The notes beneath the pieces are model-generated. The model made no database searches. It was not told the origin of the DNA and saw only the letters and a list, made by a program, of their open reading frames with translations. Shown in pieces: positions 39,490 to 57,894 of a DNA stretch of 64,000 nt (position 1 is the stretch's first letter; every line of letters begins with the position of its first letter). A program made the position numbers and the translations under genes. Source of the DNA: a bacterium (GTDB taxonomy: Bacteria; Patescibacteriota; Minisyncoccia; Phycocordibacterales; UBA2100); the NCBI GenBank assembly GCA_016789445.1, contig JAEUQT010000003.1, forward strand, positions 82,600 through 146,599, read 5' to 3'.

Positions 39490-39888
39490 CTATCCGCGCT
39501 TGGCGATGAGTTCGTCGACCGCCGCGACGATCTCCGAGGGGATGTACTGCGCTTTCTGCAGATACGCATCCATACCCAACTCGGCGAGACGTTCTTTCGC
39601 ACCTTCGCGGCCTTCGTTGGTGAGCGCGACTTTGATCGCTCGCTTGGCCAGGCCCTCTTTGGTGACGGCTTCGACGAATTCGTAGCCACTGCGACTATCC
39701 GGCATGGTGACGTCGAAAAGAATCACATCTGGTTCGTACTGGCCGCTGCGCAGCAAGTCGAGCGCGTTGTCAGCTTTGTAGTAGGTGGCCACTTCATACC
39801 CGCGCTTCTCGAATGCGAGTTTGTACATCTCGAGGAGGAACGCTTCATCGTCGAGCATCAGGACTTTGGGCTTCATTTCTCCATTCAT
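39490..39888 (-). CDS. single-domain response regulator (REC/CheY-like)
   Basis: Acidic pocket LMLDDE, phospho-acceptor D in ILFDVTMP, conserved T/K positions. Confidence 0.8.
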   Translation of the reverse strand: MNGEMKPKVLMLDDEAFLLEMYKLAFEKRGYEVATYYKADNALDLLRSGQYEPDVILFDVTMPDSRSGYEFVEAVTKEGLAKRAIKVALTNEGREGAKERLAELGMDAYLQKAQYIPSEIVAAVDELIAKRG

Positions 39889-39990
39889 GTACCAAATTAT
39901 ATATTGTCAGATGCTTTTTTCGATACAGTCCGGAATTGACATATGCTATAAATCGAAGTATAAAATATACAGGTTGCACGGAGTGAACAA

Positions 39991-40233
39991 ATGACACAGC
40001 AATCGGTGGATCCCGAACGGAAAGCGACTCCTATCGCATCGGGATCAATGGCCATCGCTTTAGCTTCAATTCGCAATGCAGAAGCATATTTGCGCTGGCA
40101 AGGAGCACAGTGGGTTATTGCACTCAATCTCTCGGCATTCGTCGCTCTTCTCTATCGCCTTTTAGCTAAGCCCGATATTGCAGAGATAATCGTACTTGCT
40201 ATAGGCTGTATAGGCGTCGCATCACTCGATTAG
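39991..40233 (+). CDS. small membrane protein (80 aa), first gene of a three-gene plus-strand unit
   Basis: ggagtg RBS; two TM helices; AT-rich region. Confidence 0.4.
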   Translation: MTQQSVDPERKATPIASGSMAIALASIRNAEAYLRWQGAQWVIALNLSAFVALLYRLLAKPDIAEIIVLAIGCIGVASLD

Positions 40234-40245
40234 GAGTGGTATAGC

Positions 40246-40491
40246 GTGGTGCGAAGAAACGGCCGTCTCTTCGATTTCTGGAATCGGAAATTTGAAGAGC
40301 ACGAACGACTGAACGGAATCGATGGAGGAATTACGGTGTTTACAGCACCGGAATACCATAATCTTTCAGGTTCGCGTGAACGTCTGCAAAGACGACTTGA
40401 ACGGATCTCGGTAATATTCGTTGTTGGGTGGTCTGCTGGTGCTATAGTGTTTATAACTCTTGCATTCGTCGCCTTGAAAGGAGGTTCATGA
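40246..40491 (+). CDS. small membrane protein (81 aa, GTG start)
   Basis: taggagtgg RBS; C-terminal TM helix. Confidence 0.4.
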   Translation: MVRRNGRLFDFWNRKFEEHERLNGIDGGITVFTAPEYHNLSGSRERLQRRLERISVIFVVGWSAGAIVFITLAFVALKGGS

Positions 40492-40607
40492 TGAAATCGC
40501 ATGAGATCTTTGCGGTTACGGTCGGAACAATTGGCGTTCTTCTGATGTTTGTGACCCCTGCGCTAATCAGCGCATGGAATCAGTGGAAGGAACGCAAGGA
40601 TCGTTAA
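40488..40607 (+). CDS. small membrane protein (about 39 aa); start overlaps the previous stop (ATGATGA)
   Basis: Hand-translated MMKSHEIFAVTVGTIGVLLMFVTPALISAWNQWKERKDR; terminator follows. Confidence 0.3.
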   Translation: MMKSHEIFAVTVGTIGVLLMFVTPALISAWNQWKERKDR

Positions 40608-40617
40608 CCCACTTCTT

Positions 40618-40648
40618 CAGCCAGCTTCAATCGAAGCTGGCTTTTTTC
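40618..40648. terminator. intrinsic terminator (agccagcttc aatc gaagctggct tttttctt)
   Basis: Hairpin plus T-tract. Confidence 0.6.
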
Positions 40649-41344
40649 TTATCCAAGAAGTCCCCAGCCAGTTGATTCGCCTCGATCTTTCGCGCAGAGG
40701 AGCTTGAGGGTCCTCCCTTCCTTTACAAATCGGAGGCCGCTTTGGATTTTGCACTTCGCGCAGCGGCCTTTGGCCTTCTCCCATGCCGCCGCTTTGGCGG
40801 CGGCCCCGAGGTAGCGTTCTTCTTCAAGCGCCGCGTCTTTGTCGCGGCGCGCTCGGTCGGCGGGCAGTAGAGAGAATTTGAAAATCTTGCGGCCGTTTTC
40901 GGTCACACCCGCCGCATCCACGAGATCAAAGATGCCTTTGTCGAACCACACGCCTGGATCGAGCTTCTCATACACCTGTATCTGGAGCGGCTCTTTGCGT
41001 ACGCCGTCCTTGAAGGCGTTCGCCGCTTTATAGAATTTCCCGTTCTCGGTCAGCTTGTCGCCGCCATACATGAGGAGCTGGTCGTTCGATTTCCCTTGCG
41101 TTTCTTTCGTCGTCGAATCGTGTCCCTCGAAGGAATAGATCTGCTTTTTCGGATTCCATTCGTCGCGGAACTCGCCATCGTCTTTCTGCAGGACGAGGAA
41201 GACGCTCAGGAGTTCTCCCTGATGGCGGAAGTTCATGCTCTTCTGCAGCATGATGCCCTCGCGCTCCATCAGCTCGTTGGCCGAGAGGATAGACGTCGCG
41301 CGTTGTGGCATGTGCACATCGCCTAAGAAATTGGACATCGGCAC
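40649..41344 (-). CDS. hypothetical protein with a possible SRA/YDG-like (PUA-fold) N-terminal region and a C-terminal Cys4 zinc-ribbon-like segment lacking His
   Basis: Weak motif resemblance only (LSVFLVL..DDG, MYGGDK, FDKGIFDL resembling the SRA YDG region); C-terminal CAKCK...LC. Confidence 0.35.
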   Translation of the reverse strand: MPMSNFLGDVHMPQRATSILSANELMEREGIMLQKSMNFRHQGELLSVFLVLQKDDGEFRDEWNPKKQIYSFEGHDSTTKETQGKSNDQLLMYGGDKLTENGKFYKAANAFKDGVRKEPLQIQVYEKLDPGVWFDKGIFDLVDAAGVTENGRKIFKFSLLPADRARRDKDAALEEERYLGAAAKAAAWEKAKGRCAKCKIQSGLRFVKEGRTLKLLCAKDRGESTGWGLLG

Positions 41345-41419
41345 AGCGTATCACTCATGTAAGCATGTTGCTAAAACAATCTTTCATTGTATAATGATTA
41401 CAGATGAAAGGAGGTTCCT

Positions 41420-42058
41420 ATGCGTCATCTTACGAAACACGCGCGTGAGCGCATCCTGCTTCGTACGGAATTGAAGCCTGAGAATGTATTGCAGCTAATC
41501 AATGACAGTGCCGCAATCAGTTTGGGCAAAGGTGAAATCTTCGAATACCTGCTCTTTTTCTCCCCTTTCGACCTCTGCTGCAAGATCGCGGTTGTGAGTC
41601 ATGATTGGGGAAATATCGTGTCTGTTTGGGACGAAGATTTCGATCTACCTGAAGGGATACTTGTGCCGACCGAACGCGACCGTTACAAGGCCAAGAAACT
41701 CTATCAAGCATTCACGTTCCGCCGTATCGGTGAAAGACAGCAAACGGCGGAAGGTCTGCCTTATTATTCGGCAACGATCGATGTCGTAGTCGAGGCCAAG
41801 ACTGTCTATTCGCACGCTGCCGGTGAAATCACGCGTTCTCAAGGCACATTCAAGAAAGAATGCATCAAAGCAATCTGGAAAGAATTGTCGACGCTTGCTA
41901 GCATCACTGAAGAGAATCGCGACAAGCTCCACGGATTCGTGCAATACCAGATCTCACTTAAGGCATTGAACGGCATTCAGGACTTCAAGCGCTACGCTAT
42001 CTCTCATAAAAAGGTCCTCCGAAAAGGAAGACCGATCACTCGACAGGCTGCCGAATAG
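41420..42058 (+). CDS. hypothetical protein (212 aa) with a DUF4258-like N-terminus (LTKHARERI...)
   Basis: aaaggagg RBS and a TATAAT -10 element upstream; lower GC than the flanks. Confidence 0.5.
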   Translation: MRHLTKHARERILLRTELKPENVLQLINDSAAISLGKGEIFEYLLFFSPFDLCCKIAVVSHDWGNIVSVWDEDFDLPEGILVPTERDRYKAKKLYQAFTFRRIGERQQTAEGLPYYSATIDVVVEAKTVYSHAAGEITRSQGTFKKECIKAIWKELSTLASITEENRDKLHGFVQYQISLKALNGIQDFKRYAISHKKVLRKGRPITRQAAE

Positions 42059-42072
42059 GCAGCCTGTTTTCT

Positions 42073-42555
42073 TTAAAACTCTGCGTCGGCTTCGGCCAAA
42101 AGTGCATCCAGATCCAAGGGGAGCGAGGTCATCTCCACCATACCGTCGTTGGATACCTTCCACTCACCTTTCGGGCGGTCGGCATATATCTCCACGCCGT
42201 TATTGTCCGGATCACGCAGATAGATGGCTTCGGAGACGCCGTGGTCGGCTGCGCCTTCGATCGGATAGCCCGCATTGGCGATGCGCTTCAGCGTGTTCGC
42301 GAGGGATTTCCGGTCGGGATACAGGAACGCGACGTGATACATGCCCGCGTATCCCGGCGGCGCCGGCTTCACGCCTTCTCCGTTCCACGTGTTCAGTCCG
42401 ATGTGATGGTGGTAGCCGCCGGCGGAGAGGAAGACGGCGCTCGTGCCATACTTCGCCGTAACCGCGAACCCCAAGAGGTCGCGATAGAACGCTACCGAGC
42501 GTTCGAGGTCGGCGACCGTGAGATGGATGTGTCCGACGATGGGGTGGGTGCTCAT
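42073..42555 (-). CDS. VOC-family protein (glyoxalase / extradiol-dioxygenase fold); start at MSTHPIVGHIHL
   Basis: Two beta-alpha-beta-beta-beta modules with conserved metal-binding His and Glu. Confidence 0.8.
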   Translation of the reverse strand: MSTHPIVGHIHLTVADLERSVAFYRDLLGFAVTAKYGTSAVFLSAGGYHHHIGLNTWNGEGVKPAPPGYAGMYHVAFLYPDRKSLANTLKRIANAGYPIEGAADHGVSEAIYLRDPDNNGVEIYADRPKGEWKVSNDGMVEMTSLPLDLDALLAEADAEF

Positions 42556-42565
42556 ATTCTTAAGA

Positions 42566-42853
42566 TTATCCGAAAAGTTCTGAATGGCTGCCAATGTCTA
42601 TGAGCACCAATATCAAGACTTCGTTTCTCACTTCGTACACCAACAAGAGATCACCTTTGATATGACATTCGCGATATCGCTTTACATCCCCAGTCAGCTG
42701 ATGGTCTCGATACGATGCCGGCAGCGACTTGCGCGCAGCGAGAGACAGAATCACATCTTCGAGCTTTTTCATCAGGGCAGGTTTCAATGTCCCGGATTTC
42801 TTCAGTTTCCGGAACGATCGTTCGAACTGTTGCGTTCTGACGACGCCGTACAT
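42566..42853 (-). CDS. yafQ: type II toxin, YafQ/RelE-ParE family
   Basis: DHQLTGDVKRYRECHIKGDLLLVY core typical of YafQ. Confidence 0.8.
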   Translation of the reverse strand: MYGVVRTQQFERSFRKLKKSGTLKPALMKKLEDVILSLAARKSLPASYRDHQLTGDVKRYRECHIKGDLLLVYEVRNEVLILVLIDIGSHSELFG

Positions 42854-42860
42854 GCGAGCA

Positions 42861-43109
42861 TTATAGCCCCTTCAACGCATCGCGCGCGCTATACACTTTC
42901 CCCTTCTTCAGAGCATCAGCAACTTCCTTGTCCCATTTCGCTGCTATCGAAGCCATGTTTTTCGTAGGAGTGAATGGCAATCCTTTTTCAAGAGCGACCT
43001 GATGGAGAAATATTTTCACACCCGATGACAAATCGAGACCGACATCACGCAATACCTTGCTTGCCGCTTTCTTGGTTTTCTCTTCGATCCGAATGTTAAG
43101 CGTAGTCAT
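42861..43109 (-). CDS. dinJ: type II antitoxin, DinJ/RelB family; start at MTTLNIRI
   Basis: Ribbon-helix-helix N-terminus (TTLNIRIEEKTKKAASKVL). Confidence 0.8.
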   Translation of the reverse strand: MTTLNIRIEEKTKKAASKVLRDVGLDLSSGVKIFLHQVALEKGLPFTPTKNMASIAAKWDKEVADALKKGKVYSARDALKGL

Positions 43110-43167
43110 ATGTAGAAAGTATATACATTGTATACACATTGTCAATACACTCACATATTACATACGA

Positions 43168-43641
43168 CTAGAATACCACTATCGTTTCAAAATTGGTGAC
43201 GGGCGGCGTGTAATCGGGAGAGGTTTCTTCGAAGGTGCGCTTTTGGACGAGATACTTCCCATCCTGCGCGACGATCTTAAAATAGTGCCCGAGACCTGCG
43301 TAGTAGCAGATGATCTGATCGGATTTCGGATACACGTCGTCGTCCGGTGATGGATACGTATTGCAGGTGCCATCGACGGTGTCGATCTCCTTCGTGCGCG
43401 AAGTGCCGTCGAAATACATGGCGCGCAGCGTGATCTTCGTGCGCGGGATCTCCCCGCTCTCGTCGGTCGAGTAGCTCCAACTGAATGTCGGCTCCCCGTG
43501 CGGCACTTCCTCTCCCTGAATCACCGGCTCAACCGCCACATCCACCACAGGCCAGAACGCGTTATATCCCGCAATCACGACAACTGCAGCAACCACGAAT
43601 GCGAGGAGGTATCTGAGTGCTGTGGGCATATGGAGGCTCAT
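43168..43641 (-). CDS. hypothetical membrane-anchored secreted protein (157 aa) sharing the 2-Cys domain of the 27388 gene
   Basis: FDGTS...VDGTC...ICYYAGLG aligns with GTS...MDGSC...ICWWAGAG. Confidence 0.5.
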   Translation of the reverse strand: MSLHMPTALRYLLAFVVAAVVVIAGYNAFWPVVDVAVEPVIQGEEVPHGEPTFSWSYSTDESGEIPRTKITLRAMYFDGTSRTKEIDTVDGTCNTYPSPDDDVYPKSDQIICYYAGLGHYFKIVAQDGKYLVQKRTFEETSPDYTPPVTNFETIVVF

Positions 43642-43893
43642 TTAATCACCTTTCTCACCAAGCTGCTCATCGATGCTGGTCGCGGCCTCCTTAACGTCTT
43701 CCAATTCCGAACGTATATCCTCCATCTGGCTGCTTAGCTCACCCTCCTCCTGTTCGATCTTAGCTTCAATCAATTCGAGCTTTTCCATCACATCCGCATG
43801 TTGCGATTCTTGCGCGTCAATCAGCTTTTCCATGAGCTCGGAGAGCGCGTCAACATCCTGACGGAGCTTCTTGATCTCGGGATTATCGAACAT
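43642..43893 (-). CDS. hypothetical acidic coiled-coil protein (83 aa), abuts the 43168 gene (TAA then ATG)
   Basis: Heptad-like E/L/I pattern. Confidence 0.45.
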   Translation of the reverse strand: MFDNPEIKKLRQDVDALSELMEKLIDAQESQHADVMEKLELIEAKIEQEEGELSSQMEDIRSELEDVKEAATSIDEQLGEKGD

Positions 43894-43926
43894 GGCTATA
43901 GTATGTACCTTTTATAATTTAAAGTC

Positions 43927-44262
43927 TTATTTTTGCTCCCCTCCATCTTCGCCGAATAAATGATCCCCAAAAATTGGTCTCGTACGTGGATTCTTAAAAA
44001 CGGACGTTGGATCTTTATCCTCTTCTACAGTTAGGAGAAAGAGGCCTCCGGTATCGAGAAGAAAACCATTCATGTGCTCCTCGATTACTCTCTTACCTAC
44101 AGCATCAGATGCCGTCTTTTTGTCGGGAGCTTCGAGAAAATAGTGCCATAGCACCGTTCCTTCAGTCGGGTGAATGATTTCGGCATAGAATTTCATAAGT
44201 TCATGCTGGCACAAATGCTTGGAAAGTATTGTATGCTCAGATTGCGGCAATAAACCTGCCAA
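43927..44262 (-). CDS. hypothetical protein (111 aa) immediately downstream of hsdR
   Basis: ORF-track ORF; low GC like the R-M island. Confidence 0.4.
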   Translation of the reverse strand: MAGLLPQSEHTILSKHLCQHELMKFYAEIIHPTEGTVLWHYFLEAPDKKTASDAVGKRVIEEHMNGFLLDTGGLFLLTVEEDKDPTSVFKNPRTRPIFGDHLFGEDGGEQK

Positions 44263-44291
44263 TTTTTCCGCTCAGTTGCAAATATAGAACC

Positions 44292-47200
44292 TTAACGTCG
44301 AAGTATTGAACCTTCAGAAATGCCAATGAATCTCTCGAAGAAGCTCGTCAATTTATTCAAGACACTATCACGTTTCCGCGAGCGCTCTCCACTTGGGGAG
44401 AAGCGAGAAACTGGTGGCAGCACCTTTGTGAGTGCTGTCCCCGTTATGGCGACTGCGCCGTCGCGAAAGGCATTTTGAACGAAATTATAGGTGGCATCAG
44501 GATCCAGATTTTCATCCTTGATGATTTGGTCCAATTCTTCCACTTTCTTTTCCTCCACATACTTCTGCCAATCCTCGTCCACGACCGAATTCGCATCGAG
44601 CGATGAAATGAATTTGTTGATGAGGTCTTTCTTGTTGCGCAATTCAACGCTCGAATCGATTGCCTTGTTGATGTCAATCAAGAGCTCTTTGTTCTTAGTA
44701 TGGTCTTCGTGGTACTTCTTGATGAGGGCAAGGATGTAATCGATATTGATCTCGATCTGCTTAATGAGCTCCATCTCAAACACCAGATCGTCGTTGATGT
44801 TCTCTTTCTCCTTGTCGATGCTGGTACGGAACTCGTTGTACAGATCAATGTACATGCTGTGGTAGTCCTGCAGATCTCGCGCAGAAAGTATTTCGTTTCC
44901 CGTGAACTGGTCGAAGGTCACCAAGATATTGCGCAACCGCAATACAGCGCCGTACAGCTTTATGAAGTCCTTTTGGCTCTGTTCACCCATAATGCGCTCG
45001 CCCACAGGAAACTTTTCCAGAAGTTCGTCTACCAAGCTCTTGTAGCCCCGCACCTCCTTGTTACGTTCCGTGTAGCCGTTGTAGTAGTCCTCGTATGCTT
45101 TGAGAAGCACGATGCCGCTCGCTTCCTTGTCTCCGAAAAGAGCGATTGCTTCGTTGGTAGCTTTCTCTAAATTGCGGAAGCAGACGATATTGCCGAAGGT
45201 CTTCACGCTGTTAAGGATGCGATTCGTACGGGAATATGCCTGCAGTAGCCCGTGGAGTCGGAGATTCTTGTCCACCCACAGCGTGTTGAGTGTGGTGGCA
45301 TCAAAACCGGTCAGAAACATATTGACCACAATGAGAATATCAATCTCGCGACTCTTTACGCGCTCACTCACGTCTTTATAGTAGTTTTGGAACTTATCTG
45401 ACGAAGTATCGTACGATGTGCCGAACATCGCATTGTAGTCGGCGATAGCACTCTCTAAGAACTCACGCGAACTAGCATCAAGTCCGCTAGTGTCTTCCGA
45501 GTTTTCATCAACCATCCCGTCGGCATCCTCGTCGTTGACGCCAAAACTGAAGATTGTGGCGACCTTCAATTTTTTGTCACTGGGAACGTCCGCGAGCTGT
45601 TTTTTGAACTCGGCATAATACTTCTTTGCGACATCAATGGAAGACACCGCGAATATTGAATTGAAACCGGCAAGGCGTCTGTCTTTCAGCTTGTAAAAGC
45701 TATTGCGCTTTGTCTTTTGGTCGAAGTGTTCGCGTATATAACGCACGATATTCTCGAGTCGTTCAGGCGAAGCGAGAGCTGCCTCACGATCTATACCGCT
45801 CACTTGCTTGTCCTCGATGTCTTCCGCTTCGCGGATTGTGGAGACGTAATCAACCTTGAAGGGCAACACGTTCTTGTCCGCAATCGCGTCCACAATCGTA
45901 TACGTATGGAGCTTGGTGCCGAATGCCTGCTCGGTGGTCTTTAGGTCTGGACGACCACCAGACGAGGCGTTTGCGGCAAATATTGGCGTACCCGTGAAGC
46001 CAAATAGGTGGTAGTTATTAAATGCCTTGGTGATAGCGGCATGCATGTCGCCGAACTGCGAACGATGACACTCATCAAAAATAAGCGCTACATGCCCATC
46101 AAATATGGTGTGTCCGCTGTTGCGCGCTATGAAGCGGTCGAGCTTTTGGATGGTGGTAACGATGATGCGAGCCTTAGAGTCTTCAAGCTGCTTTTTCAAT
46201 ATTGATGTCGAGGTGTTGCTGTTCGCCGCTCCTTTCTCAAACTTGTCATACTCACGCATTGTCTGATAGTCGAGATCCTTGCGGTCTACGATGAAAAGGA
46301 CCTTGTCGATGTACGACAATTTGCTGGCAAGTTGTGCTGCCTTGAAGCTGGTGAGCGTTTTACCCGATCCAGTGGTATGCCAGATGTATCCACCTGCCTC
46401 TACCGTGCCTAGCTTTTTATAGTTGGTACTTACCTCGATGCGGTTCAAAATGCGCTCTGTAGCCACTATTTGATACGGGCGCATAACCAGCAGTTGGTGG
46501 TCGGTCGTGAACACGCAATAGCGTGTGAGGACATTGAGGAGCGTATGCTTGGCAAAAAACGTCTTAGCAAAGTCCATGAGGTCAGCAATCGGCTTGTTGG
46601 TCGCATCTGCCCACCAACTGGTAAACTCAAAGCTGCTGCTCGAACGCTTACCACGCTTTGCTGCGCCTTCGTTTGCTTCCTTGATATGCTGCCAGCGAGT
46701 CGTATTGCTGTAATACTTCGTATGCGTGCCATTCGAGATAACAAAAAGCTGGATGTATTCATAAAGCCCCGAAGCCGCCCAGAAGCTCTCGCGCTGATAG
46801 CGATTAATTTGGTTGAATGCTTCTTGAATAGCCACCCCACGACGTTTGAGTTCAATGTGGACTAACGGCAAGCCGTTCACGAGGATGGTCACGTCATAGC
46901 GATTCGCGCGCGCACCATCCTCGGTCGCGTACTGATTTATGACCTGTAACGTGTTGTCATGCACGTTGTCTTTACGGAGTAGGTAGATGTTCTTTGTGGA
47001 GCCATCATCCCGTGTGAGATTTTTTATGTAGTCCTCTTGAATGGTTGCTGTCTTTTCTTCAATGCTCTGGTTAGGGTTGGCTATTTCACCCTTAAAGAAC
47101 CGTTCCCACTCCTTGTCGGTAAAGATGTAATCGTTGAGCTTCTCAAGCTGGGTGCGGAGGTTTGCAATGAGGTCGTCTTCGCTTGTGATGGGGAGGCAAC

Positions 47201-47354
47201 CATAGGCCTGGGATTCGAGCTGCTCGATAAACGCACGTTCAAGCTCCGCTTCGCTCTGATAGTGTTCCGCGCGGTTCTTGTCCGGCGTGTATTCAGCTAC
47301 GACGGTGCTCTGCGCGTTCTCGGCAACTAAATTGTATTTGTTATTAACTGACAT
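44292..47354 (-). CDS. hsdR: type I restriction enzyme R subunit (HsdR)
   Basis: N-terminal nuclease region, SF2 helicase motifs (TGSGKT, DECH), C-terminal domain; 1020 aa. Confidence 0.95.
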   Translation of the reverse strand: MSVNNKYNLVAENAQSTVVAEYTPDKNRAEHYQSEAELERAFIEQLESQAYGCLPITSEDDLIANLRTQLEKLNDYIFTDKEWERFFKGEIANPNQSIEEKTATIQEDYIKNLTRDDGSTKNIYLLRKDNVHDNTLQVINQYATEDGARANRYDVTILVNGLPLVHIELKRRGVAIQEAFNQINRYQRESFWAASGLYEYIQLFVISNGTHTKYYSNTTRWQHIKEANEGAAKRGKRSSSSFEFTSWWADATNKPIADLMDFAKTFFAKHTLLNVLTRYCVFTTDHQLLVMRPYQIVATERILNRIEVSTNYKKLGTVEAGGYIWHTTGSGKTLTSFKAAQLASKLSYIDKVLFIVDRKDLDYQTMREYDKFEKGAANSNTSTSILKKQLEDSKARIIVTTIQKLDRFIARNSGHTIFDGHVALIFDECHRSQFGDMHAAITKAFNNYHLFGFTGTPIFAANASSGGRPDLKTTEQAFGTKLHTYTIVDAIADKNVLPFKVDYVSTIREAEDIEDKQVSGIDREAALASPERLENIVRYIREHFDQKTKRNSFYKLKDRRLAGFNSIFAVSSIDVAKKYYAEFKKQLADVPSDKKLKVATIFSFGVNDEDADGMVDENSEDTSGLDASSREFLESAIADYNAMFGTSYDTSSDKFQNYYKDVSERVKSREIDILIVVNMFLTGFDATTLNTLWVDKNLRLHGLLQAYSRTNRILNSVKTFGNIVCFRNLEKATNEAIALFGDKEASGIVLLKAYEDYYNGYTERNKEVRGYKSLVDELLEKFPVGERIMGEQSQKDFIKLYGAVLRLRNILVTFDQFTGNEILSARDLQDYHSMYIDLYNEFRTSIDKEKENINDDLVFEMELIKQIEINIDYILALIKKYHEDHTKNKELLIDINKAIDSSVELRNKKDLINKFISSLDANSVVDEDWQKYVEEKKVEELDQIIKDENLDPDATYNFVQNAFRDGAVAITGTALTKVLPPVSRFSPSGERSRKRDSVLNKLTSFFERFIGISEGSILRR

Positions 47355-48552
47355 ATTCGGGGAAGGTTAAGAGCTTGCCTCGATAGTATTCGTACTGTTT
47401 GCGCCGTGCCGAGATTTCCGCCGGGAGACCTTCGGATTTGTCATTCACAAGCGCATCAAACTTGTCCAGAATTGACACAATATGTTCTTGCTCTTCCTCT
47501 GACGGAACTGGTACGGGTATCTTGTTGAGGTTTGTTTTGTTGAGCTTTGGTTGTGCTCCTCCGCTGACATAAGATCGTAAATCGATAGAATTCAAATAGA
47601 TCTCAATCAGACGTCGCATTGCATAACTCTCAAACTTAAGAACATGAGCGTGGTTATTGACCCAGGTCTTTCCTGAAATCGAAAAAGCGATTGGCGTCGT
47701 TCTTGCAAGAAGATTGGCTCCATCTTCTGAAACAAGTAAGTAGTCACCCTCAAATATGTAGTCGCTAACATAGTCAACAATGCCGGACGCCCCATAGTAA
47801 GGAACGTTTCCAGCCGTCCGTGCTGATCGCGTGACTGGTTTACGCTTTGAGTCTAAGTTGATGGAAATTCTATCGAGCGTCGTCCATCTTACTCTCTCAC
47901 TCTCGTTAAACGTCAAGAGCTCAGAACGATAATGCTCGTATTGCTTCCCTCTCGCTTCTAACTCTGCTTCTAACTCTGCTTCTAACTCTGTAAAAGCATC
48001 GAGGATGCTTGCAATCTCCTGCTGGATTTCAAGTGGCGGAACGGGAATTTTGATTGATGCCAATGTTGCCATTCGTACTCCTTTAAGCGTACTGCCGACC
48101 GATTGACTTTGATACTGGTCCTTTGCGATGTCTGAACCAAGGATATACATCAAATACCTTGGCAATATTGTTTCTTGCTTGGGTTTTATGATGAAGACAC
48201 TTTCACTGCAATTCCAGTTGTTTGTCGGAATATCTGCCAATGCAACTTTTCCAATAGTTCCAATACCAGAAAACAGCACGTCGTTCAATTCCAAGTCAGA
48301 GCGGTTCTGAATTATTCTTACAGCTTCATCATTAATCTTATCTGTCTTGTCACTGAACTGAACCTTACCAGAAGTAATCTCCTTGACCGTTACATAAAAA
48401 TTGGTTGCGTCGGGCGTATTCAATCTGAAATTCTGGCGCGGATTCAATCCTGTCTTAATTGATTTTGTGATAACTCCCAACTCCCTAAACTCCACACCTT
48501 TCGAGCATTTTTCAGCAATCAACTTTTCAATTTGACTCTGGTGTTTGGTCAT
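47344..48552 (-). CDS. hsdS: type I restriction-modification specificity subunit (HsdS)
   Basis: Two target-recognition domains separated by a central conserved helical region; overlaps hsdR by 11 nt. Confidence 0.9.
   Translation of the reverse strand: MTKHQSQIEKLIAEKCSKGVEFRELGVITKSIKTGLNPRQNFRLNTPDATNFYVTVKEITSGKVQFSDKTDKINDEAVRIIQNRSDLELNDVLFSGIGTIGKVALADIPTNNWNCSESVFIIKPKQETILPRYLMYILGSDIAKDQYQSQSVGSTLKGVRMATLASIKIPVPPLEIQQEIASILDAFTELEAELEAELEARGKQYEHYRSELLTFNESERVRWTTLDRISINLDSKRKPVTRSARTAGNVPYYGASGIVDYVSDYIFEGDYLLVSEDGANLLARTTPIAFSISGKTWVNNHAHVLKFESYAMRRLIEIYLNSIDLRSYVSGGAQPKLNKTNLNKIPVPVPSEEEQEHIVSILDKFDALVNDKSEGLPAEISARRKQYEYYRGKLLTFPEYVS
47953..47988. repeat. 3 x 12-bp tandem repeat (tgcttctaactc) encoding ELEAELEAELEA in the HsdS central spacer
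   Basis: Copies 2 and 3 identical, copy 1 differs at its first base (3 x 12 nt); in frame. Confidence 0.7.
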
Positions 48553-48554
48553 GG

Positions 48555-50156
48555 TTATTTTTTACCTTCAATATCAGCAACGATAGCGTCGATAGCGTTA
48601 CGGAGTTCGTTTTGGCGAGCGACAATGTTCGCAATACTCTCGTTCAGCTCCTTGATATCAACTACCTCACGAGTGTCTTTTCCGTCCACATAGCTTGAGA
48701 CCGAGATATTGTAGTCGTTCTCCGCAATATCATTGTTGTTCACCAGCGCGGCAAAGTGCTCAACGTCTTCTCGGTCAATAAAGGCATCGAGGATCTTTTT
48801 GCGATTTGTTTCGCTGAGTTTGTTCTTATTGCCACTGCGAACGAACTCGGTCGATGCGTCAATGAAAAACGTCTTATTGTCTTTCTTACTCTTTTTCAGA
48901 ACAATTACGCAGGTCGCAATAGTTGTGCCGAAGAAGAGATCCGGCGGCAGCTGGATTACAGAGTCGATGTAGTTGTTGTCTATGAGATACTTGCGGATCT
49001 TCTGCTCTGCACCACCGCGATAGAGCACGCCAGGGAACTCGACGATGGCTGCCGTGCCGTTCGTCGCAAGCCACGAGAGCATGTGCATTGTGAATGCGAG
49101 ATCCGCTTTGCTCTTAGGCGCGAGTACACCTGCCGGAGAGAAACGGGGGTCGTTGATGAGAATGGGATTAGCGTCACCCTCCCATCGGATTGAGTAGGGA
49201 GGGTTCGATACGATGGCCTCAAATGGCTCATCGTCCCAGTGCTTAGGGTCTGTGAGAGTATCACCATGCGCGATATTGAACTTCTCGTAGTTGATATCGT
49301 GCAAGAACATGTTGATGCGGCATAGATTGAACGTGGTGAGATTGATTTCCTGTCCGAAAAACCCCTGACGTACTTTGTCTTTACTCAGTACCTTGGCGAA
49401 TTTGAGCAACAGCGAACCGGAGCCGCACGCAGGGTCATACACTTTATTGACTTCCTTTTTGCCTACCGTAGTTATCTCTGCCAGTAGCTCGCTTACTTCC
49501 TGTGGCGTAAAGAACTCGCCGCCGGACTTACCGGCGTTGGAGGCGTACATGGTCATGAGGAACTCGTATGCATCGCCGAAAGCATCTATTGAGTTGTCGG
49601 CATAGTCGCCAAAGCGCAAACCCCCTATTGCCTCAAGGAGCTTTGCGAGCTTCTGATTGCGTCTTTCTACGGTGTTGCCCAGCTTGCCGGAGTTAACGTC
49701 GAGGTCGTCGAAAAGTCCCTTGAGGTCATCCTCGCTATCTGCGCCCTTCGCGGAGCTCTCTATGTTGTTGAAGACGCGCTCAAGTGTTTCGTTGAGGTTC
49801 GCGTCATTCCGAGCGTTTTTTGTGACGTTTACGAACAGCTCGCTTGGCAGTATGTAAAAACCTTTCTCTTTTACCGTATCGGCGCGACCAAATTCAGCTT
49901 GTTTATCTGAAAGTGATGCGTAATCAAAATCCTTTTTTCCAGCACGCTGCTCCTCTTCATTGATGTAGCTCTCGAGGTTCTCGCTAATGAAGCGATAGAA
50001 GAGCATTCCAAGCACGTACTGCTTAAAATCCCACCCGTCCACACTGCCACGAAGATCGTTGGCAATCTGCCAAATGGCACGATGCAATTCTGACCGCTCT
50101 TGGTCTTTCGTGACTGCTGAACCTTGTTTGTTCACCATATAGTCGATCTTGATCAT
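48555..50156 (-). CDS. hsdM: type I restriction-modification methyltransferase subunit (HsdM)
   Basis: N-terminal HsdM helical domain (LHRAIWQIANDLRG), N6-adenine MTase motifs including NPPY (VSNPPYS). Start is probably MIKIDY (50156) or MVNKQ (50138); the track extension to 50255 is unlikely. Confidence 0.9.
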   Translation of the reverse strand: MIKIDYMVNKQGSAVTKDQERSELHRAIWQIANDLRGSVDGWDFKQYVLGMLFYRFISENLESYINEEEQRAGKKDFDYASLSDKQAEFGRADTVKEKGFYILPSELFVNVTKNARNDANLNETLERVFNNIESSAKGADSEDDLKGLFDDLDVNSGKLGNTVERRNQKLAKLLEAIGGLRFGDYADNSIDAFGDAYEFLMTMYASNAGKSGGEFFTPQEVSELLAEITTVGKKEVNKVYDPACGSGSLLLKFAKVLSKDKVRQGFFGQEINLTTFNLCRINMFLHDINYEKFNIAHGDTLTDPKHWDDEPFEAIVSNPPYSIRWEGDANPILINDPRFSPAGVLAPKSKADLAFTMHMLSWLATNGTAAIVEFPGVLYRGGAEQKIRKYLIDNNYIDSVIQLPPDLFFGTTIATCVIVLKKSKKDNKTFFIDASTEFVRSGNKNKLSETNRKKILDAFIDREDVEHFAALVNNNDIAENDYNISVSSYVDGKDTREVVDIKELNESIANIVARQNELRNAIDAIVADIEGKK

Positions 50157-50500
50157 TCTAACGCACAAGACTGATTCCCCACCCCAGAATGCTGAGAAAA
50201 AGAACCCAGCTGAGAAATTGCACAAAATGCCCATATGCCCCATGTACAACAGCACTCGCCAAGCGCCACAACGGATATAGCAAAAAGAAAGCTGCCCTCA
50301 GAACTGCATTGAGCAAATATTCCCACCATCGCTGTCTGTACATTGGGGAATCCTACGCCCAAAATGAAGAAACGCCACTGCTTGTGGGCTTGTGCACACC
50401 CCTTGAATTCACTTGATTTTAACGAGGCGCTCGGTTATAATACATGCAAGATCACCACGGAAAACGCCCTTCAAGGCTCGTCCTTGCGGGGTTTTTTCTT

Positions 50501-50986
50501 TCAGCCCCGCTTGGTATATTCGAGTTTCTTACGCAAATCTGACACAAAGGCCAGATAACCCGAATCGAACTTCTTAAGCAAAGCAGAATATTTTGCTTGG
50601 TTCGGGATAAGTAATTTCTCAAACTTCTGCTGCTTGACCAGGTAGTCGACAAGACAATAAAAATCCCCGTCGCCAGTGACGATGACCGCTTTAGAATACT
50701 CATCACGATCGATCATTGCCTGTAGCACAAGCTCTGCGTCACAATTACCCTTTGTAGTCCCGTCCTTATAACGTAATGTGGGTTTGAAAATGAGAATATA
50801 GCCCTTCTCTTGTAGCGATTTATACAAGTCGGCATGTTTCTCGACAAAACCGATGAAAAGATATGCCTTTTCGACCTTATATTTGTCCTTCAAATACCGT
50901 CGGAACCTCAACCAATCAATCTTCCACCCAAGACCCTGGACGGCAAGATTGAGGTTCTGACTGTCGATAAAGGCGTAATTCGCCAT
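50501..50986 (-). CDS. NYN-domain protein (LabA-like); start at MANYAFIDSQN
   Basis: Conserved acidic residues (FIDSQN, DAELV, VIVTGDGDF). Confidence 0.75.
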   Translation of the reverse strand: MANYAFIDSQNLNLAVQGLGWKIDWLRFRRYLKDKYKVEKAYLFIGFVEKHADLYKSLQEKGYILIFKPTLRYKDGTTKGNCDAELVLQAMIDRDEYSKAVIVTGDGDFYCLVDYLVKQQKFEKLLIPNQAKYSALLKKFDSGYLAFVSDLRKKLEYTKRG

Positions 50987-51052
50987 ACGAATTAATCCTA
51001 CGCTCAAAATGAAGAAAATCCACTGTTTTCAGGCTAAAGCCCGAGCCAAGAC

Positions 51053-51080
51053 TTGGCTAAAATGGCGCCATTTTAGCCAA
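51053..51080. promoter_or_regulatory. 28-bp perfect palindrome ttggctaaaatggc/gccattttagccaa between the NYN gene start and the stop of the 51088 gene
   Basis: Read from the sequence; operator or terminator-like. Confidence 0.4.
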
Positions 51081-51087
51081 GGGCGCC

Positions 51088-51666
51088 CTAAACTAGCTCG
51101 TAGACTGTCCCCGCACGGATTCCTGACCTTTTGAGCTTTCCTTCGCGCACGAGCTGGCTTAGGTAGTTAGTCGCAGTCGCATCGCTCACCCGGAGCAGCT
51201 TTTCGACGTCGTCGTTTTTGATGGAGCGCTTGGCTTTGGCGAGGACAATGATTTTCTCCAATTTGGCTCGCTTTCGGAACTGCACTTTCTCGAGGGCGGC
51301 GTAGAGGCGATCTTTGATGTTTACCCCGTAGGATGCCGCGGGAGCGGCTATCGTATCGGGGGTGATTGCTGTCGGATTGGTTGGCGGTGAGACAGGGTCG
51401 GGCCCCTGTCGCAAGGCCGGACCAGCTTGGCTGGGAGGCGGGGTCGCGGAAAATCGTTCCGACGATTTATCTGTGACCGGGTTAGACGGCGGCCGTGAGG
51501 GTTGCGGCACTTCTGGTGCGGGAGTTTCCACCGGTGGGATTTCGGGAGATGGCTGGACAGCTTCGGGAACGGGAGGCGGCGGCGAAGCCGCCGCCGGGCT
51601 CTCGACAACAGGCGCGGTCGAAGTCGGAGTCTCTACGCTTACGCCTGCATCCGCGACGTCGCTCAT
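51088..51666 (-). CDS. hypothetical protein with a Pro/Ala/Ser-rich N-terminal half and a C-terminal winged-helix-like domain
   Basis: Low-complexity PPPPVPEAVQPSPEIPPV...; C-terminal LLRVSDATATNYLSQLVREGKLKR resembles a wHTH. Confidence 0.5.
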   Translation of the reverse strand: MSDVADAGVSVETPTSTAPVVESPAAASPPPPVPEAVQPSPEIPPVETPAPEVPQPSRPPSNPVTDKSSERFSATPPPSQAGPALRQGPDPVSPPTNPTAITPDTIAAPAASYGVNIKDRLYAALEKVQFRKRAKLEKIIVLAKAKRSIKNDDVEKLLRVSDATATNYLSQLVREGKLKRSGIRAGTVYELV

Positions 51667-56524: not shown

Positions 56525-57114
56525 ATGATGTCTCGTAGCGGTTCTCGTAATGCCTCCCGCAATGCCTCCTTCGCGCGGCGCATGCGGATTCCCACCGTTC
56601 CCATCGGGATCTGCAGCACATCCGCCATGTCCTTGTAGGACAGCTCTTCGTAGTAATGCAGCACCAATACCTCGCGGTACTTCGGGCTCAACTTCTCCAG
56701 TCCGGTATCAATCATAGCGCGTATTTCCTTCAATTCGCGTTCCGTCTCCGCCGATTCGTCGACCACGTGATGTGCAAGAAATGTATCGAAATCGATATCA
56801 ACTGGGCCATGCTGATTCTTTCGCAGATGATTAGCAAATGCATTGTGTGCGATGCGATATATCCACGGAGAGAATCGTAGTGACGCATCGAAGCCCTGGA
56901 TACTGCGGTAGACACTGATGAAGACATCTTGGACGACGTCGGTGATGTCGTCGGCGCGTGCGATGAATTTGGTGCCATAACGGTGCAATTTCTTCTCGTA
57001 GCGGTCGACCAACTCGCCGAACGCGTCGATATCCCCGCGCTGCACGCGGATCGCTATCTCTTCGTCGGTGAGGGGTGTCTGGTCCACCACGCTATAGTAC
57101 ACGCGAACCTTCAT
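56521..57114 (-). CDS. RNA polymerase sigma-70 factor, ECF subfamily
   Basis: Region 2 (VQDVFISVY...) and region 4 HTH (SYKDMADVLQIPMGTVGIRMRRA). Confidence 0.9.
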   Translation of the reverse strand: MKVRVYYSVVDQTPLTDEEIAIRVQRGDIDAFGELVDRYEKKLHRYGTKFIARADDITDVVQDVFISVYRSIQGFDASLRFSPWIYRIAHNAFANHLRKNQHGPVDIDFDTFLAHHVVDESAETERELKEIRAMIDTGLEKLSPKYREVLVLHYYEELSYKDMADVLQIPMGTVGIRMRRAKEALREALREPLRDII

Positions 57115-57179
57115 TTTTCTTTCACCTATCTTTCAAAGGGAAAAGCCCCCGATCGGGGGCTTTTCGCATGAGAGAACCC

Positions 57180-57824
57180 TTACTGTTGTGCCGGTGGCTC
57201 CGGAAGATCATCCATGATCTGTGTCGCCGTCACCGAATTGCCCGAGACCGTTCCCTGGACGCCGATGCGATCCCCGACCGCGATGTCTGAGATGCTGCCC
57301 GCAACCATTTTCTGGACCGTCGCGCTACCGGCGTTCACCGTGTAGCTCTGGCCGTCCTTGCCCGTCACCGTGATGGTATTCCCATCGACCGCCGTGACCT
57401 GGCCCATGACGCCATGTCCGCGCCCGCCTGGGCCGCCGAAGCCATGTCCGCCTTTCGGCATGCCACTCATGACTTTCGTCGCGGTGAGTGTCGTGCCATC
57501 AAGCGTGCCTTCTGCCATCACATGACCGCCGACCGTGACGCTCGAGATGTCCGACGAAGCGCCATCTTTTATGAACGTCGCACCGCTGGCATCAATGGTG
57601 TAGGTGCCGCCTTTGCGCATATCGTTCACCGTGATCGTGGTGCCACTCACCGCCGTGACCTCGCCGCCGACGTGCGGCGTCGATTCATCGAACATGTGGC
57701 GTTCCTGATTCGTGTTGGTAGAAGTGTCGGCGGAAACCATGCCGACGTATCCCGCGATACCGCCACCGAGGAGCATGAGACCGCCAAGGATGGGGAGCGT
57801 GATGAATTTCTGAGAGTTCGTCAT
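57180..57824 (-). CDS. DUF5666-domain secreted protein (two internal G-x-V-T-A-V-x-G-T-I-T-V repeats)
   Basis: Signal/anchor; repeats GEVTAVSGTTITVND and GQVTAVDGNTITVTG. Confidence 0.7.
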   Translation of the reverse strand: MTNSQKFITLPILGGLMLLGGGIAGYVGMVSADTSTNTNQERHMFDESTPHVGGEVTAVSGTTITVNDMRKGGTYTIDASGATFIKDGASSDISSVTVGGHVMAEGTLDGTTLTATKVMSGMPKGGHGFGGPGGRGHGVMGQVTAVDGNTITVTGKDGQSYTVNAGSATVQKMVAGSISDIAVGDRIGVQGTVSGNSVTATQIMDDLPEPPAQQ

Positions 57825-57894
57825 AATCGAATGTACTAGTTTTCTAATGTGGAGGCGTCCCCCGCACGTATCTAGTACACCCCTTCTCGCCGGT

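What the first reader, a model, noticed from the sequence alone, without database searches (positions are those of the whole stretch)
43900..51100. Low-GC island carrying a complete type I R-M system (hsdM-hsdS-hsdR) with a 3 x 12-bp tandem repeat in the hsdS spacer that could switch specificity
From about 43.9 to 51.1 kb the base composition drops markedly relative to the flanks. The island encodes HsdM (NPPY), HsdS (two TRDs) and HsdR (1020 aa) with 3- and 11-nt junctions, plus a NYN-domain gene and a 111-aa unknown. In hsdS the central conserved helix contains tgcttctaactc x3 (47953-47988) encoding ELEAELEAELEA. In EcoR124I versus EcoR124II, copy number of an analogous 12-bp (TAEL) repeat changes the spacer between half-sites and thus the recognised sequence, so slipped-strand gain or loss here would change specificity by one helical repeat.
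Basis: partly seen in the sequence, partly recalled or inferred. Interest (0 to 1): 0.6.

Follow-up and report, generated by a model that had tools for sequence, protein, structure and literature searches.

The report
Type IC restriction system with spacer repeat
This is an intact EcoR124-type (type IC) restriction-modification system on a horizontally acquired island in an uncultivated Kaiserbacteria-like bacterium, and the 12-bp triplet in its specificity gene is the family's well-known repeat that sets the gap in the DNA target, so it is a correct but ordinary finding.

Summary
A segment of about 7.4 kb (window ~43,630-50,999) has 47.2% GC against 56.4% for the rest of the window. On its minus strand it carries a NYN gene, hsdM, hsdS, hsdR and two small unknown ORFs. 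HsdM and HsdR are close relatives of EcoR124I, so this is a type IC system.

The only strong tandem repeat in the 64 kb is GAGTTAGAAGCA x2 plus GAGTTAGAAGCG (47,953-47,988). It encodes ELEAx3 (HsdS residues 189-200) inside the long central helix. It aligns without gaps to the TAEL repeats of EcoR124I.

How copy number sets the target gap is textbook type IC biology (EcoR124I/II, EcoDXXI, NgoAV). By helix length, the window's three DNA units equal the two-TAEL, N6 state of EcoR124I.

- **For repeat turnover:** two relatives' contigs are 99.8% identical over 8.3 kb and differ by exactly one 12-bp unit. Codons are uniform within each gene but differ between genes.
- **Against an active switch here:** all three assemblies of this strain and the three closest cassettes carry the same length.

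Verdict: a new member of a known kind. A specificity change is possible but not shown at this locus.

The parts
43630..50999 (.). Low-GC, strain-variable island that carries the R-M cassette. The right border is good to about 5 nt, the left to about 20 nt.
   Evidence: GC is 0.472 against 0.564 elsewhere, about 9.8 sd below equally long windows. JGI contig L008 is 98.6% identical to window 60,682-50,995 and then diverges into a different methyltransferase gene. Against Logan contig L001 there are 0 differences in 43,614-50,999 but 96 in 40.0-43.6 kb.
50501..50986 (-). NYN-domain (LabA-like predicted nuclease) gene, 161 aa from the ATG at 50,986. It is the first gene of the island, and its link to the R-M system is not conserved.
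   Evidence: Pfam NYN E=1.5e-11. PADLOC NYN E=1.5e-5. It is absent upstream of hsdM in the closest cassettes L096 and L097.
50349..50390 (.). 42-nt direct repeat, copy 1, upstream of hsdM. Copy 2 lies at 50,994-51,035, on the island/host junction. Together they bracket the NYN gene.
   Evidence: 83% identity between copies. The 24-nt core occurs only twice in the window and 0 times in shuffles. Among fetched loci it occurs only in this strain's contigs and in L008.
48555..50138 (-). hsdM, the N6-adenine methyltransferase subunit. The likely start is MVNKQ at 50,138; Logan calls MIKIDY at 50,156.
   Evidence: TIGR00497 hsdM E=1.3e-232. 57% identical to EcoR124 HsdM over 512 columns. NPPY at residue 312.
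47344..48552 (-). hsdS, the specificity subunit, 402 aa. Layout: TRD1, D1 helix, TRD2, D2 helices.
   Evidence: Pfam Methylase_S with 2 stretches. Best solved relative is EcoR124 HsdS 7bst_A, E=1.7e-29. AlphaFold model pLDDT 88.6 with helices 174-212, 352-370 and 375-394. Foldseek hits HsdS structures.
47917..48033 (-). Central conserved helix D1 (HsdS residues 174-212).
   Evidence: One continuous predicted helix. Gap-free alignment to the EcoR124I central region.
47953..47988 (-). 12-bp tandem repeat: GAGTTAGAAGCA x2 plus GAGTTAGAAGCG. It encodes ELEAELEAELEA, residues 189-200.
   Evidence: It aligns to [12 protein letters not shown] of EcoR124I.
47892..47904 (-). Interrupted GA tract GAGAGTGAGAGAG (codons E217-V221), in frame. 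It sits where the closest relatives carry a frameshift-prone (GA)n or poly-G tract.
   Evidence: L095 has (GA)6G in frame. L096 has (GA)8G out of frame, splitting hsdS into 206 + 165 aa. L097 has G9 out of frame, giving 214 + 165 aa. L098 and L099 begin in the poly-G tract.
44292..47354 (-). hsdR, the restriction and translocase subunit, 1020 aa. Its start overlaps hsdS by 11 nt.
   Evidence: Pfam HSDR_N, SWI2_SNF2, T1R_D3-like and EcoR124_C. E~1e-259 to EcoR124I HsdR. Nuclease and motor motifs present.
43927..44262 (-). 111-aa ORF (89 aa in Logan gene calls, 43,927-44,196), function unknown, inside the island.
   Evidence: No Pfam, PADLOC or NCBIfam match. GC 0.438.
43642..43893 (-). 83-aa predicted coiled-coil ORF, function unknown, the last gene inside the identical segment.
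   Evidence: Only weak coiled-coil-type matches. It lies within the segment that is 100% identical between strains.
51052..51081 (.). Perfect 15+15-nt palindrome after the host 192-aa gene, just outside the island. It is probably that gene's terminator hairpin.
   Evidence: Inverted repeat I3, 100% complementary. It is conserved in L008.

Best explanation
The region is an intact type IC (EcoR124-family) restriction-modification cassette, hsdM-hsdS-hsdR. It sits on a horizontally acquired, strain-variable segment of about 7.4 kb in the chromosome of a Kaiserbacteria-like (Patescibacteria/CPR) bacterium.

**How it works (inferred from the family).** M2S methylates a bipartite target, and R2M2S translocates and cuts unmodified DNA. 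The 12-bp x3 repeat encodes part of helix D1, which pairs with helix D2 and holds the two target-recognition domains apart. D1 length therefore sets the distance between the two half-sites.

**Present state.** The stretch between ILDxF and RxKQY is 13 aa in D1 and 17 aa in D2. That equals EcoR124I, whose target is GAA N6 RTCG with the methylated adenines 7 nt apart.

**Expected changes.** Gain of one unit by slippage or unequal crossing-over would give the EcoR124II/EcoDXXI-like length, with a gap 1 bp longer. Loss of one unit would shorten the gap by 1 bp.

**Timescale.** Such changes happen in this family over short evolutionary times. In this lineage the length looks stably held, so the repeat is an occasional diversification device and not a fast phase-variation switch.

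**Shown here:** gene identities, intact motifs, repeat position and length equivalence, island borders, polymorphism in relatives.

**Inferred:** enzymatic activity, the recognition sequence, the effect of copy number in this enzyme, and the rate of change.
For: **Family**
- HsdM matches EcoR124 HsdM at E=2.5e-190, 57% identity.
- HsdR matches EcoR124 HsdR at E~1e-259 and has the EcoR124_C domain.
- Catalytic motifs are intact.

**Repeat position and length**
- FT-ELEAELEAELEA-RGKQY aligns without gaps to [19 protein letters not shown] of EcoR124I HsdS.
- The repeat lies in predicted helix 174-212.
- The D2 linker is 17 aa, as in EcoR124I.

**Documented mechanism**
- EcoR124I/II, EcoDXXI and EcoPrrI (PMC3874165).
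- NgoAV LEAT repeats, N6 against N7 in methylomes (PMC6789123).
- Tetra-amino-acid repeats are characteristic of type IC HsdS (PMC10030836).

**Turnover in relatives**
- The nearest full-length HsdS relatives, P0005 and P0016, are identical except for one AELQ unit.
- Their contigs are 99.8% identical over 8.3 kb, with 4 substitutions and a single 12-bp gap in the repeat.
- P0071 and P0076 are 98% identical apart from one 4-aa indel.
- D1 linker lengths in 90 homologues are 13 aa (81), 17 (6), 9 (2) and 5 (1), all steps of 4.
- Codons are uniform within each gene but differ between genes: Leu is TTAx3, CTGx3 or CTAx3.

**Island**
- GC shift.
- Different cargo at the same site in L008.
- HsdR is 84-96% identical across Uhrbacteria, Moranbacteria, other Patescibacteria and Chlorobium records, whereas host UvrB is only about 80% identical to other Kaiserbacteria.
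Against: - No copy-number variant of this allele was seen. The window and Logan contigs from SRR17233805 and SRR17233806 encode the identical HsdS, with 0 differences across the island.
- The three closest cassettes (HsdR 92-96% identical) also have a 13-aa linker.
- A pattern scan of JGI metagenome contigs for this allele with 1-5 units found nothing.
- Three 12-bp units is a short tract, so the mutation rate is probably low.
- Activity, recognition sequence and expression are untested. The promoter and terminator scan gave nothing above chance.
- How a 4-aa change in one helix is accommodated structurally is unresolved even for EcoR124 (PMC3874165).
Confidence: 0.85

Rival explanations
1. 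The 12-bp repeat is a fast contingency locus. Slipped-strand mispairing would change the unit number at high frequency within the population, giving co-existing cells with different target gaps (a phase-variable specificity switch, phasevarion-like).
For: - The DNA tract is nearly perfect, 35 of 36 bases.
- Near-identical relatives differ by one unit.
- Codons are homogenised within each gene.
- Sister cassettes carry true hypermutable tracts, (GA)n or poly-G, next to D1, in on and off frames. This cassette family is therefore under selection for hsdS variability.
Against: - Only 3 units of 12 bp are present.
- Three assemblies of the strain carry the same count.
- Four of the four closest cassettes have the same length, and 81 of 90 homologues do. 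This points to stabilising selection on length.
- The window's own GA tract is interrupted and in frame.
- Assemblies report consensus sequence and cannot show minority alleles, so this evidence is weak in both directions.
Confidence: 0.1
2. The system is a decaying or silent remnant, and the repeat has no present function.
For: No expression or methylation data exist. No recognisable promoter stands out above chance. Sister cassettes have a frameshifted hsdS.
Against: - All three genes are full length with intact motifs.
- The tight junctions, a 2-nt gap and an 11-nt overlap, are preserved.
- There are 0 substitutions across 7.4 kb between strains, and HsdR is 84-96% conserved over more than 120 clusters.
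Confidence: 0.04
3. The low-GC stretch is native compositional heterogeneity and not an acquired island.
For: The neighbouring 39.6-43.6 kb is also patchy in GC. GC3 of hsdM and hsdR (0.60, 0.61) is close to host values.
Against: - A sister strain, 98.6% identical in the flank, has different cargo starting at the same nucleotide position.
- HsdR is nearly identical in distant phyla.
- The GC deviation is about 9.8 sd.
Confidence: 0.03

Closest known systems
EcoR124I / EcoR124II (type IC, plasmid R124, E. coli)
   Same: - Similar subunits: HsdM 57% identical, HsdR E~1e-259.
- Same hsdM-hsdS-hsdR order. That this order is typical of type IC is from my own knowledge.
- HsdS has a 12-bp, 4-aa tandem repeat at the same place in helix D1, and the alignment is gap-free.
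- The D1 linker is 13 aa and the D2 linker 17 aa, identical to EcoR124I.
   Different: - The unit is ELEA (GAGTTAGAAGCA), not TAEL. Here the periodicity fills all 12 residues, so there are three DNA units where EcoR124I has two plus partial flanks.
- Both TRDs differ, so the target sequence is unknown.
- The location is a chromosomal island in a CPR bacterium, not an enterobacterial plasmid.
- No alternative-length allele has been observed.
EcoDXXI and EcoPrrI (type IC, three TAEL repeats, N7 gap)
   Same: Same family and the same D1 repeat principle (PMC3874165).
   Different: They carry the longer, 17-aa-type D1. The window is one unit shorter. The +1 variant of the window's gene would match their length.
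NgoAV of Neisseria gonorrhoeae (type IC; LEAT repeats plus a poly-G tract in hsdS)
   Same: A tetra-amino-acid repeat in the central region whose number correlates with N6 or N7 targets in natural strains (PMC6789123). A homopolymer downstream truncates HsdS. The window's sister cassettes L096 and L097 have exactly this second feature.
   Different: In the window the frameshift-prone tract is interrupted (GAGAGTGAGAGAG), so HsdS is full length. The host is an environmental CPR bacterium, not a host-adapted pathogen.
Phase-variable type I hsdS genes with simple sequence repeats between the TRDs (Atack et al. 2019, PMC7383803)
   Same: Sister cassettes carry (GA)n or G(n) immediately after the coiled-coil repeat, the position that paper describes.
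   Different: The window's copy lacks a long uninterrupted tract. Only the in-frame 12-bp repeat remains as a potential source of variation.

Membership tests
Type I restriction-modification system | Three separate subunit genes hsdM, hsdS and hsdR, adjacent and co-oriented | tested here: met
   There is a 2-nt gap and an 11-nt overlap between the genes.
Type I restriction-modification system | HsdM gamma-class N6-adenine methyltransferase motifs (AdoMet-binding DxAxGSG and catalytic NPPY) | tested here: met
   DPACGSG at residue 235 and NPPY at residue 312. TIGR00497 E=1.3e-232.
Type I restriction-modification system | HsdR with a PD-(D/E)xK nuclease and SF2 motor motifs | tested here: met
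   D154...E168-L-K170, GSGKT at 329 and DECH at 427. Pfam HSDR_N and SWI2_SNF2.
Type I restriction-modification system | HsdS fold: two TRDs joined by two long antiparallel helices | tested here: met
   AlphaFold model pLDDT 88.6. Foldseek top hits are 1yf2, 1ydx, 5ybb_D, 7vru_C and 7bst_A, all with probability 1.00.
Type IC family (EcoR124-like) | HsdM and HsdR closely similar to the EcoR124I subunits, including the EcoR124-type C-terminal domain of HsdR | tested here: met
   HsdM 57% identity, E=2.5e-190. HsdR E~1e-259. PF12008 EcoR124_C E=2.6e-67.
Type IC family (EcoR124-like) | [quoted passage not shown] | tested here: met
   ELEA x3 at residues 189-200, aligned without gaps to the TAEL region of EcoR124I. 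The criterion is as stated in PMC10030836.
Type IC family (EcoR124-like) | Subunit complementation or antibody cross-reaction with EcoR124I (the original operational definition) | not testable with these tools
   Needs genetics or biochemistry.
Type IC family (EcoR124-like) | Methylated adenines 7-8 nt apart in a bipartite target | not testable with these tools
   Needs methylome data. The prediction from helix length is 7 nt.
Specificity switching by D1 repeat number (EcoR124I/II type) | Alleles of the same hsdS that differ only in the number of 12-bp units | tested here: not met
   For this allele, three assemblies are identical and the metagenome pattern scan was empty. The feature is met in relatives: L004 against L005 and P0071 against P0076.
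Phase-variable (simple-sequence-repeat) type I system | A long uninterrupted hypermutable tract in hsdS or hsdM, with on and off frames in the population | tested here: not met
   The window's GA tract is interrupted (GAGAGTGAGAGAG) and in frame. Sister cassettes L096, L097, L098 and L099 do meet the feature. There is no second hsdS copy and no inverted repeats suggesting a shufflon.

The most novel reading that the evidence does not exclude
This cassette may belong to a highly conserved, widely transferred type IC lineage. HsdR is 84-96% identical across Kaiserbacteria, Uhrbacteria, Moranbacteria and Chlorobium records.

Its hsdS would carry two stacked repeat devices:
1. The in-frame 12-bp D1 repeat, which sets gap length.
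2. An adjacent (GA)n or poly-G tract, which toggles between full-length HsdS with a bipartite target and truncated HsdS with a palindromic target.

If both vary within populations, uncultivated CPR episymbionts would run phasevarion-like, specificity-switching R-M systems of the sort so far described mainly in host-adapted pathogens. The window's copy would then be a locked-on variant that can still change gap length.
Probability: 0.2. Interest if true: 0.5.

Novelty: new member of a known kind. Interest (0 to 1): 0.3.

Why it matters
Type I specificity subunits decide which foreign DNA a cell destroys and which methylation pattern its own genome carries.

- **What it adds.** It shows an EcoR124-type system with the family's gap-setting repeat in a Candidate Phyla Radiation bacterium. 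It also shows the cassette moving almost unchanged between distant lineages. Both add to the picture of how these small-genome bacteria, which mostly lack CRISPR, defend themselves and exchange defence genes.
- **What it does not add.** There is no new mechanism. Control of target gap by repeat number has been known since 1989 and has been seen in natural Neisseria strains.
- **Practical value.** It gives a testable methylome prediction: one bipartite m6A motif with the methylated adenines 7 nt apart. It also points to sister cassettes with real frameshift tracts, which would be better subjects for studying phase variation in CPR bacteria.

Tried and rejected
- **ParB scan of genome contigs.** The aim was to name the organism and find island-free relatives.
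- **DNA pattern scan of metagenome contigs.** It searched for this hsdS allele with 1-5 repeat units and found no hits.
- **The listing of cluster members for the window's HsdS and three variants.** The window's sequence is not in that table and the other clusters are singletons, so no extra alleles emerged.
- **Exact look-up of the left-flank 153-aa protein.** It is not on record, so the left border rests on the divergence profile and GC only.
- **Scan with the 192-aa flank protein.** It found 80 loci, all distant (72% identity or less). L013 has the flank gene and a glyoxalase homologue 4.4 kb apart with no type I genes. It is a different organism at ~49% GC, so it gives only weak support for an empty site.
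- **Promoter and terminator scan.** Counts equalled the shuffled expectation, so nothing was claimed from it.
- **Second hsdS copy or invertible segments, i.e. a shufflon-type switch.** None was found, so this idea was rejected.
- **PADLOC, NCBIfam and Pfam on the 111-aa, 83-aa and 153-aa ORFs.** No meaningful matches.
- **Predicting the recognition sequence from TRD similarity.** Not possible with the libraries available.

Full report
**1. The observation**

The window has GC of 0.55-0.60 over most of its length and 0.43-0.51 between about 43.6 and 51.0 kb. For 43,630-50,999 the value is 0.472, against 0.564 for the rest. Equally long windows elsewhere give 0.5675 +/- 0.0098 with a minimum of 0.540, so the deviation is about 9.8 sd.

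On the minus strand the segment holds these genes:
- a NYN-domain gene (50,501-50,986);
- hsdM (48,555-50,138 or 50,156);
- hsdS (47,344-48,552, 402 aa);
- hsdR (44,292-47,354, 1020 aa);
- a 111-aa ORF (89 aa in independent gene calls);
- an 83-aa coiled-coil ORF.

The catalytic motifs are intact. HsdM has DPACGSG and NPPY. HsdR has D154...E168-x-K170, GSGKT and DECH. The hsdM/hsdS junction is a 2-nt spacer, not 3.

The repeat is at the stated coordinates. On the coding strand it reads GAGTTAGAAGCA, GAGTTAGAAGCA, GAGTTAGAAGCG, so one of 36 bases deviates. It is the only tandem array with TRF score >=50 in the 64 kb. Nothing comparable arose in 200 shuffles.

**2. What it is**

HsdM matches EcoR124 HsdM at E=2.5e-190, with 57% identity over 512 columns. 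HsdR matches EcoR124I HsdR at about 1e-259 and has the EcoR124_C domain. The best solved relative of HsdS is the EcoR124 specificity subunit. This is a type IC system.

The central region aligns without a gap. Window ILDAFT-ELEAELEAELEA-RGKQYEHYR lines up with EcoR124I [27 protein letters not shown]. An AlphaFold model (pLDDT 88.6) places residues 189-200 inside one continuous helix, 174-212. The second connecting helix runs 352-394, and the model matches solved HsdS structures.

One nuance matters. The stretch between ILDxF and RxKQY is 13 aa in D1 and 17 aa in D2, exactly as in the two-TAEL form of EcoR124I in 7bst. So three DNA units here correspond in length to the N6-type EcoR124I state, not to the three-TAEL EcoR124II/EcoDXXI state.

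**3. What is already known**

- EcoR124I has two TAEL repeats and recognises GAA N6 RTCG.
- EcoR124II has three and recognises GAA N7 RTCG.
- EcoDXXI and EcoPrrI have three.
- Engineered changes in repeat number shift the gap as predicted.

Natural Neisseria gonorrhoeae strains with different numbers of LEAT repeats in NgoAV hsdS show N6 or N7 motifs in methylomes (PMC6789123). Tandem tetra-amino-acid repeats are described as characteristic of type IC HsdS (PMC10030836; also PMC7383803).

**4. Evidence from relatives**

*Linker lengths.* Among the 120 best HsdS homologues, 90 had a recognisable D1. Their linker lengths were 13 aa (81), 17 (6), 9 (2) and 5 (1), always in steps of four.

*Natural pairs.* The nearest full-length relatives of the window's HsdS are about 62% identical with both TRDs related. 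They include a natural pair, P0005 (398 aa) and P0016 (394 aa), that differ only by one AELQ unit. Their contigs come from different metagenome assemblies. They are 99.8% identical over 8.3 kb, with four substitutions and one 12-bp gap (GCGGAGCTGCAA x2 against x1). A second pair, P0071 and P0076, is 98% identical apart from one 4-aa indel.

*Codon usage.* In seven genes read at DNA level, the units use the same synonymous codons within a gene but different ones between genes. Leu is TTAx3 in the window, CTGx3 in L095 and L096, and CTAx3 in L097. Mean unit identity is 10.8 of 12 within genes and 9.6 of 12 between genes. This is the pattern expected from repeated contraction and expansion or gene conversion.

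Together these results show that the repeat turns over in this family in nature.

**5. Evidence about this locus itself**

The identical HsdS is encoded on two Logan contigs, from SRR17233805 and SRR17233806. Contig L001 differs from the window at 149 positions over 21 kb, but at none between 43,614 and 50,999.

The three closest cassettes, with HsdR 96, 94 and 92% identical, have different TRDs. They share the hsdS N-terminus, and all have a 13-aa D1 linker made of three units. A pattern scan of JGI metagenome contigs allowing 1-5 units found nothing.

There is thus no sign of copy-number polymorphism at this allele, and the length looks selected. Assemblies report consensus sequence, so minority alleles cannot be excluded.

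**6. The island**

*Host.* The host is chromosomal Patescibacteria. The window carries uvrA, uvrB, uvrC, murB, aminoacyl-tRNA synthetases and parB. UvrB is 79-84% identical to named Kaiserbacteria and Parcubacteria genomes.

*Right border.* A JGI contig (L008) is 98.6% identical to window 60,682-50,995. It then diverges, about 9 nt before the NYN start codon, into a 572-aa N6_N4 methyltransferase gene. This fixes the right border and shows that the site holds alternative defence cargo.

*Left border.* It is inferred at about 43.61-43.64 kb. There the inter-strain divergence jumps from 0 to several per cent and GC rises.

*Transfer.* HsdR has more than 120 database clusters at 84-96% identity. 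Named records come from Uhrbacteria, Moranbacteria, other Patescibacteria and Chlorobium phaeovibrioides. The cassette therefore moves between distant lineages.

*Unresolved detail.* GC3 of hsdM and hsdR (about 0.60) is near host values, while hsdS (0.45) and the small ORFs are lower. That fits a mosaic origin, but I did not resolve it.

**7. A second repeat device in the sister cassettes**

Directly after D1, following LLTF, the relatives carry a frameshift-prone tract:
- L095 has (GA)6G, in frame.
- L096 has (GA)8G, out of frame, so hsdS is split into 206- and 165-aa ORFs.
- L097 has G9, out of frame, giving 214 + 165 aa.
- Two JGI contigs, L098 and L099, start inside that poly-G run.

This is the class of hsdS simple-sequence repeat described by Atack et al. 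and known from NgoAV.

The window has GAGAGTGAGAGAG at 47,892-47,904. The tract is interrupted and in frame, so its HsdS is full length and this device appears disabled.

**8. Verdict**

This is a new member of a well-known kind, type IC R-M with the D1 gap-setting repeat. It sits on an acquired island in a CPR bacterium, in the EcoR124I-length state.

Specificity change by gain or loss of a unit is mechanistically credible and occurs in close relatives, but it is not demonstrated here. A specialist would not be surprised.

The modest points of interest are the cross-phylum spread of a nearly invariant cassette and the presence of phase-variation-type tracts in CPR-associated sister cassettes.

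Noticed in passing
window 50349-50390 and 50994-51035: A 42-nt direct repeat (83% identical) brackets the NYN gene. One copy lies exactly on the island/host junction and the other just upstream of hsdM. Each copy ends in an AGGA-type ribosome-binding sequence 5-7 nt before an ATG. The motif is specific to this host lineage and is absent from the other cassettes. It may mark a separate insertion of the NYN module or a duplicated promoter/leader.
   Followed up: partly
L096 2780-2810; L097 2600-2625; L098 and L099 position 1; window 47892-47904: The closest sister cassettes carry a (GA)n or poly-G tract right after the D1 repeat. It splits hsdS into two ORFs when out of frame. Two JGI contigs begin in the poly-G run. 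The window's tract is interrupted and in frame.
   Followed up: yes
proteins P0022-P0030, P0069, P0070 and P0098-P0120 (not in the window): HsdS homologues of about 600 aa with three TRDs have lengths stepping by 5 aa (584 to 624). The cause is (SRAEQ)n or (NGTER)n runs of 1-8 copies between the second and third TRD, that is, pentanucleotide repeats read in frame. This resembles the 'extended HsdS' class of Atack et al. 2019.
   Followed up: partly
L008 9686-11606 (JGI 3300028486, Ga0307786_1005289): A sister strain has a 572-aa N6_N4 methyltransferase gene at the very position where the window has NYN-hsdMSR. The site is therefore a hotspot for exchangeable defence cargo.
   Followed up: partly
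window 39600-43610 and 57000-58550: Against Logan contig L001 these two stretches carry 96 and 47 differences. The island and most of 51-57 kb carry 0-3. The left stretch is patchy in GC and holds a RelB/YafQ toxin-antitoxin pair (42,566-43,109), a glyoxalase and several unknown ORFs. It looks like a recombination-prone variable region next to parB.
   Followed up: no
window 50158-50343 (minus strand): An uncalled 61-aa hydrophobic ORF (MYRQRWWEYLL...) lies between NYN and hsdM. It starts 5 nt after the 42-nt repeat and ends 1 nt before the alternative hsdM start at 50,156. It may be spurious or a small leader or membrane peptide.
   Followed up: no
L095 5050-6701; L096 6401-8052; L097 6225-9906: The genes downstream of hsdR differ between near-identical cassettes. 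L095 and L096 have Peptidase_M78 plus DUF4411. L097-L099 have an 816-aa protein plus 232- and 175-aa unknowns. The window has 111-aa and 83-aa ORFs. L096 has a 68-aa HTH_3 (controller-like) gene upstream of hsdM where the window has NYN.
   Followed up: no
L090-L092 (P0063 loci): Another type IC locus with an LEAELEAELEA D1 has a Fic-domain gene between hsdS and hsdR, and an HsdR with an N-terminal GIY-YIG domain.
   Followed up: no
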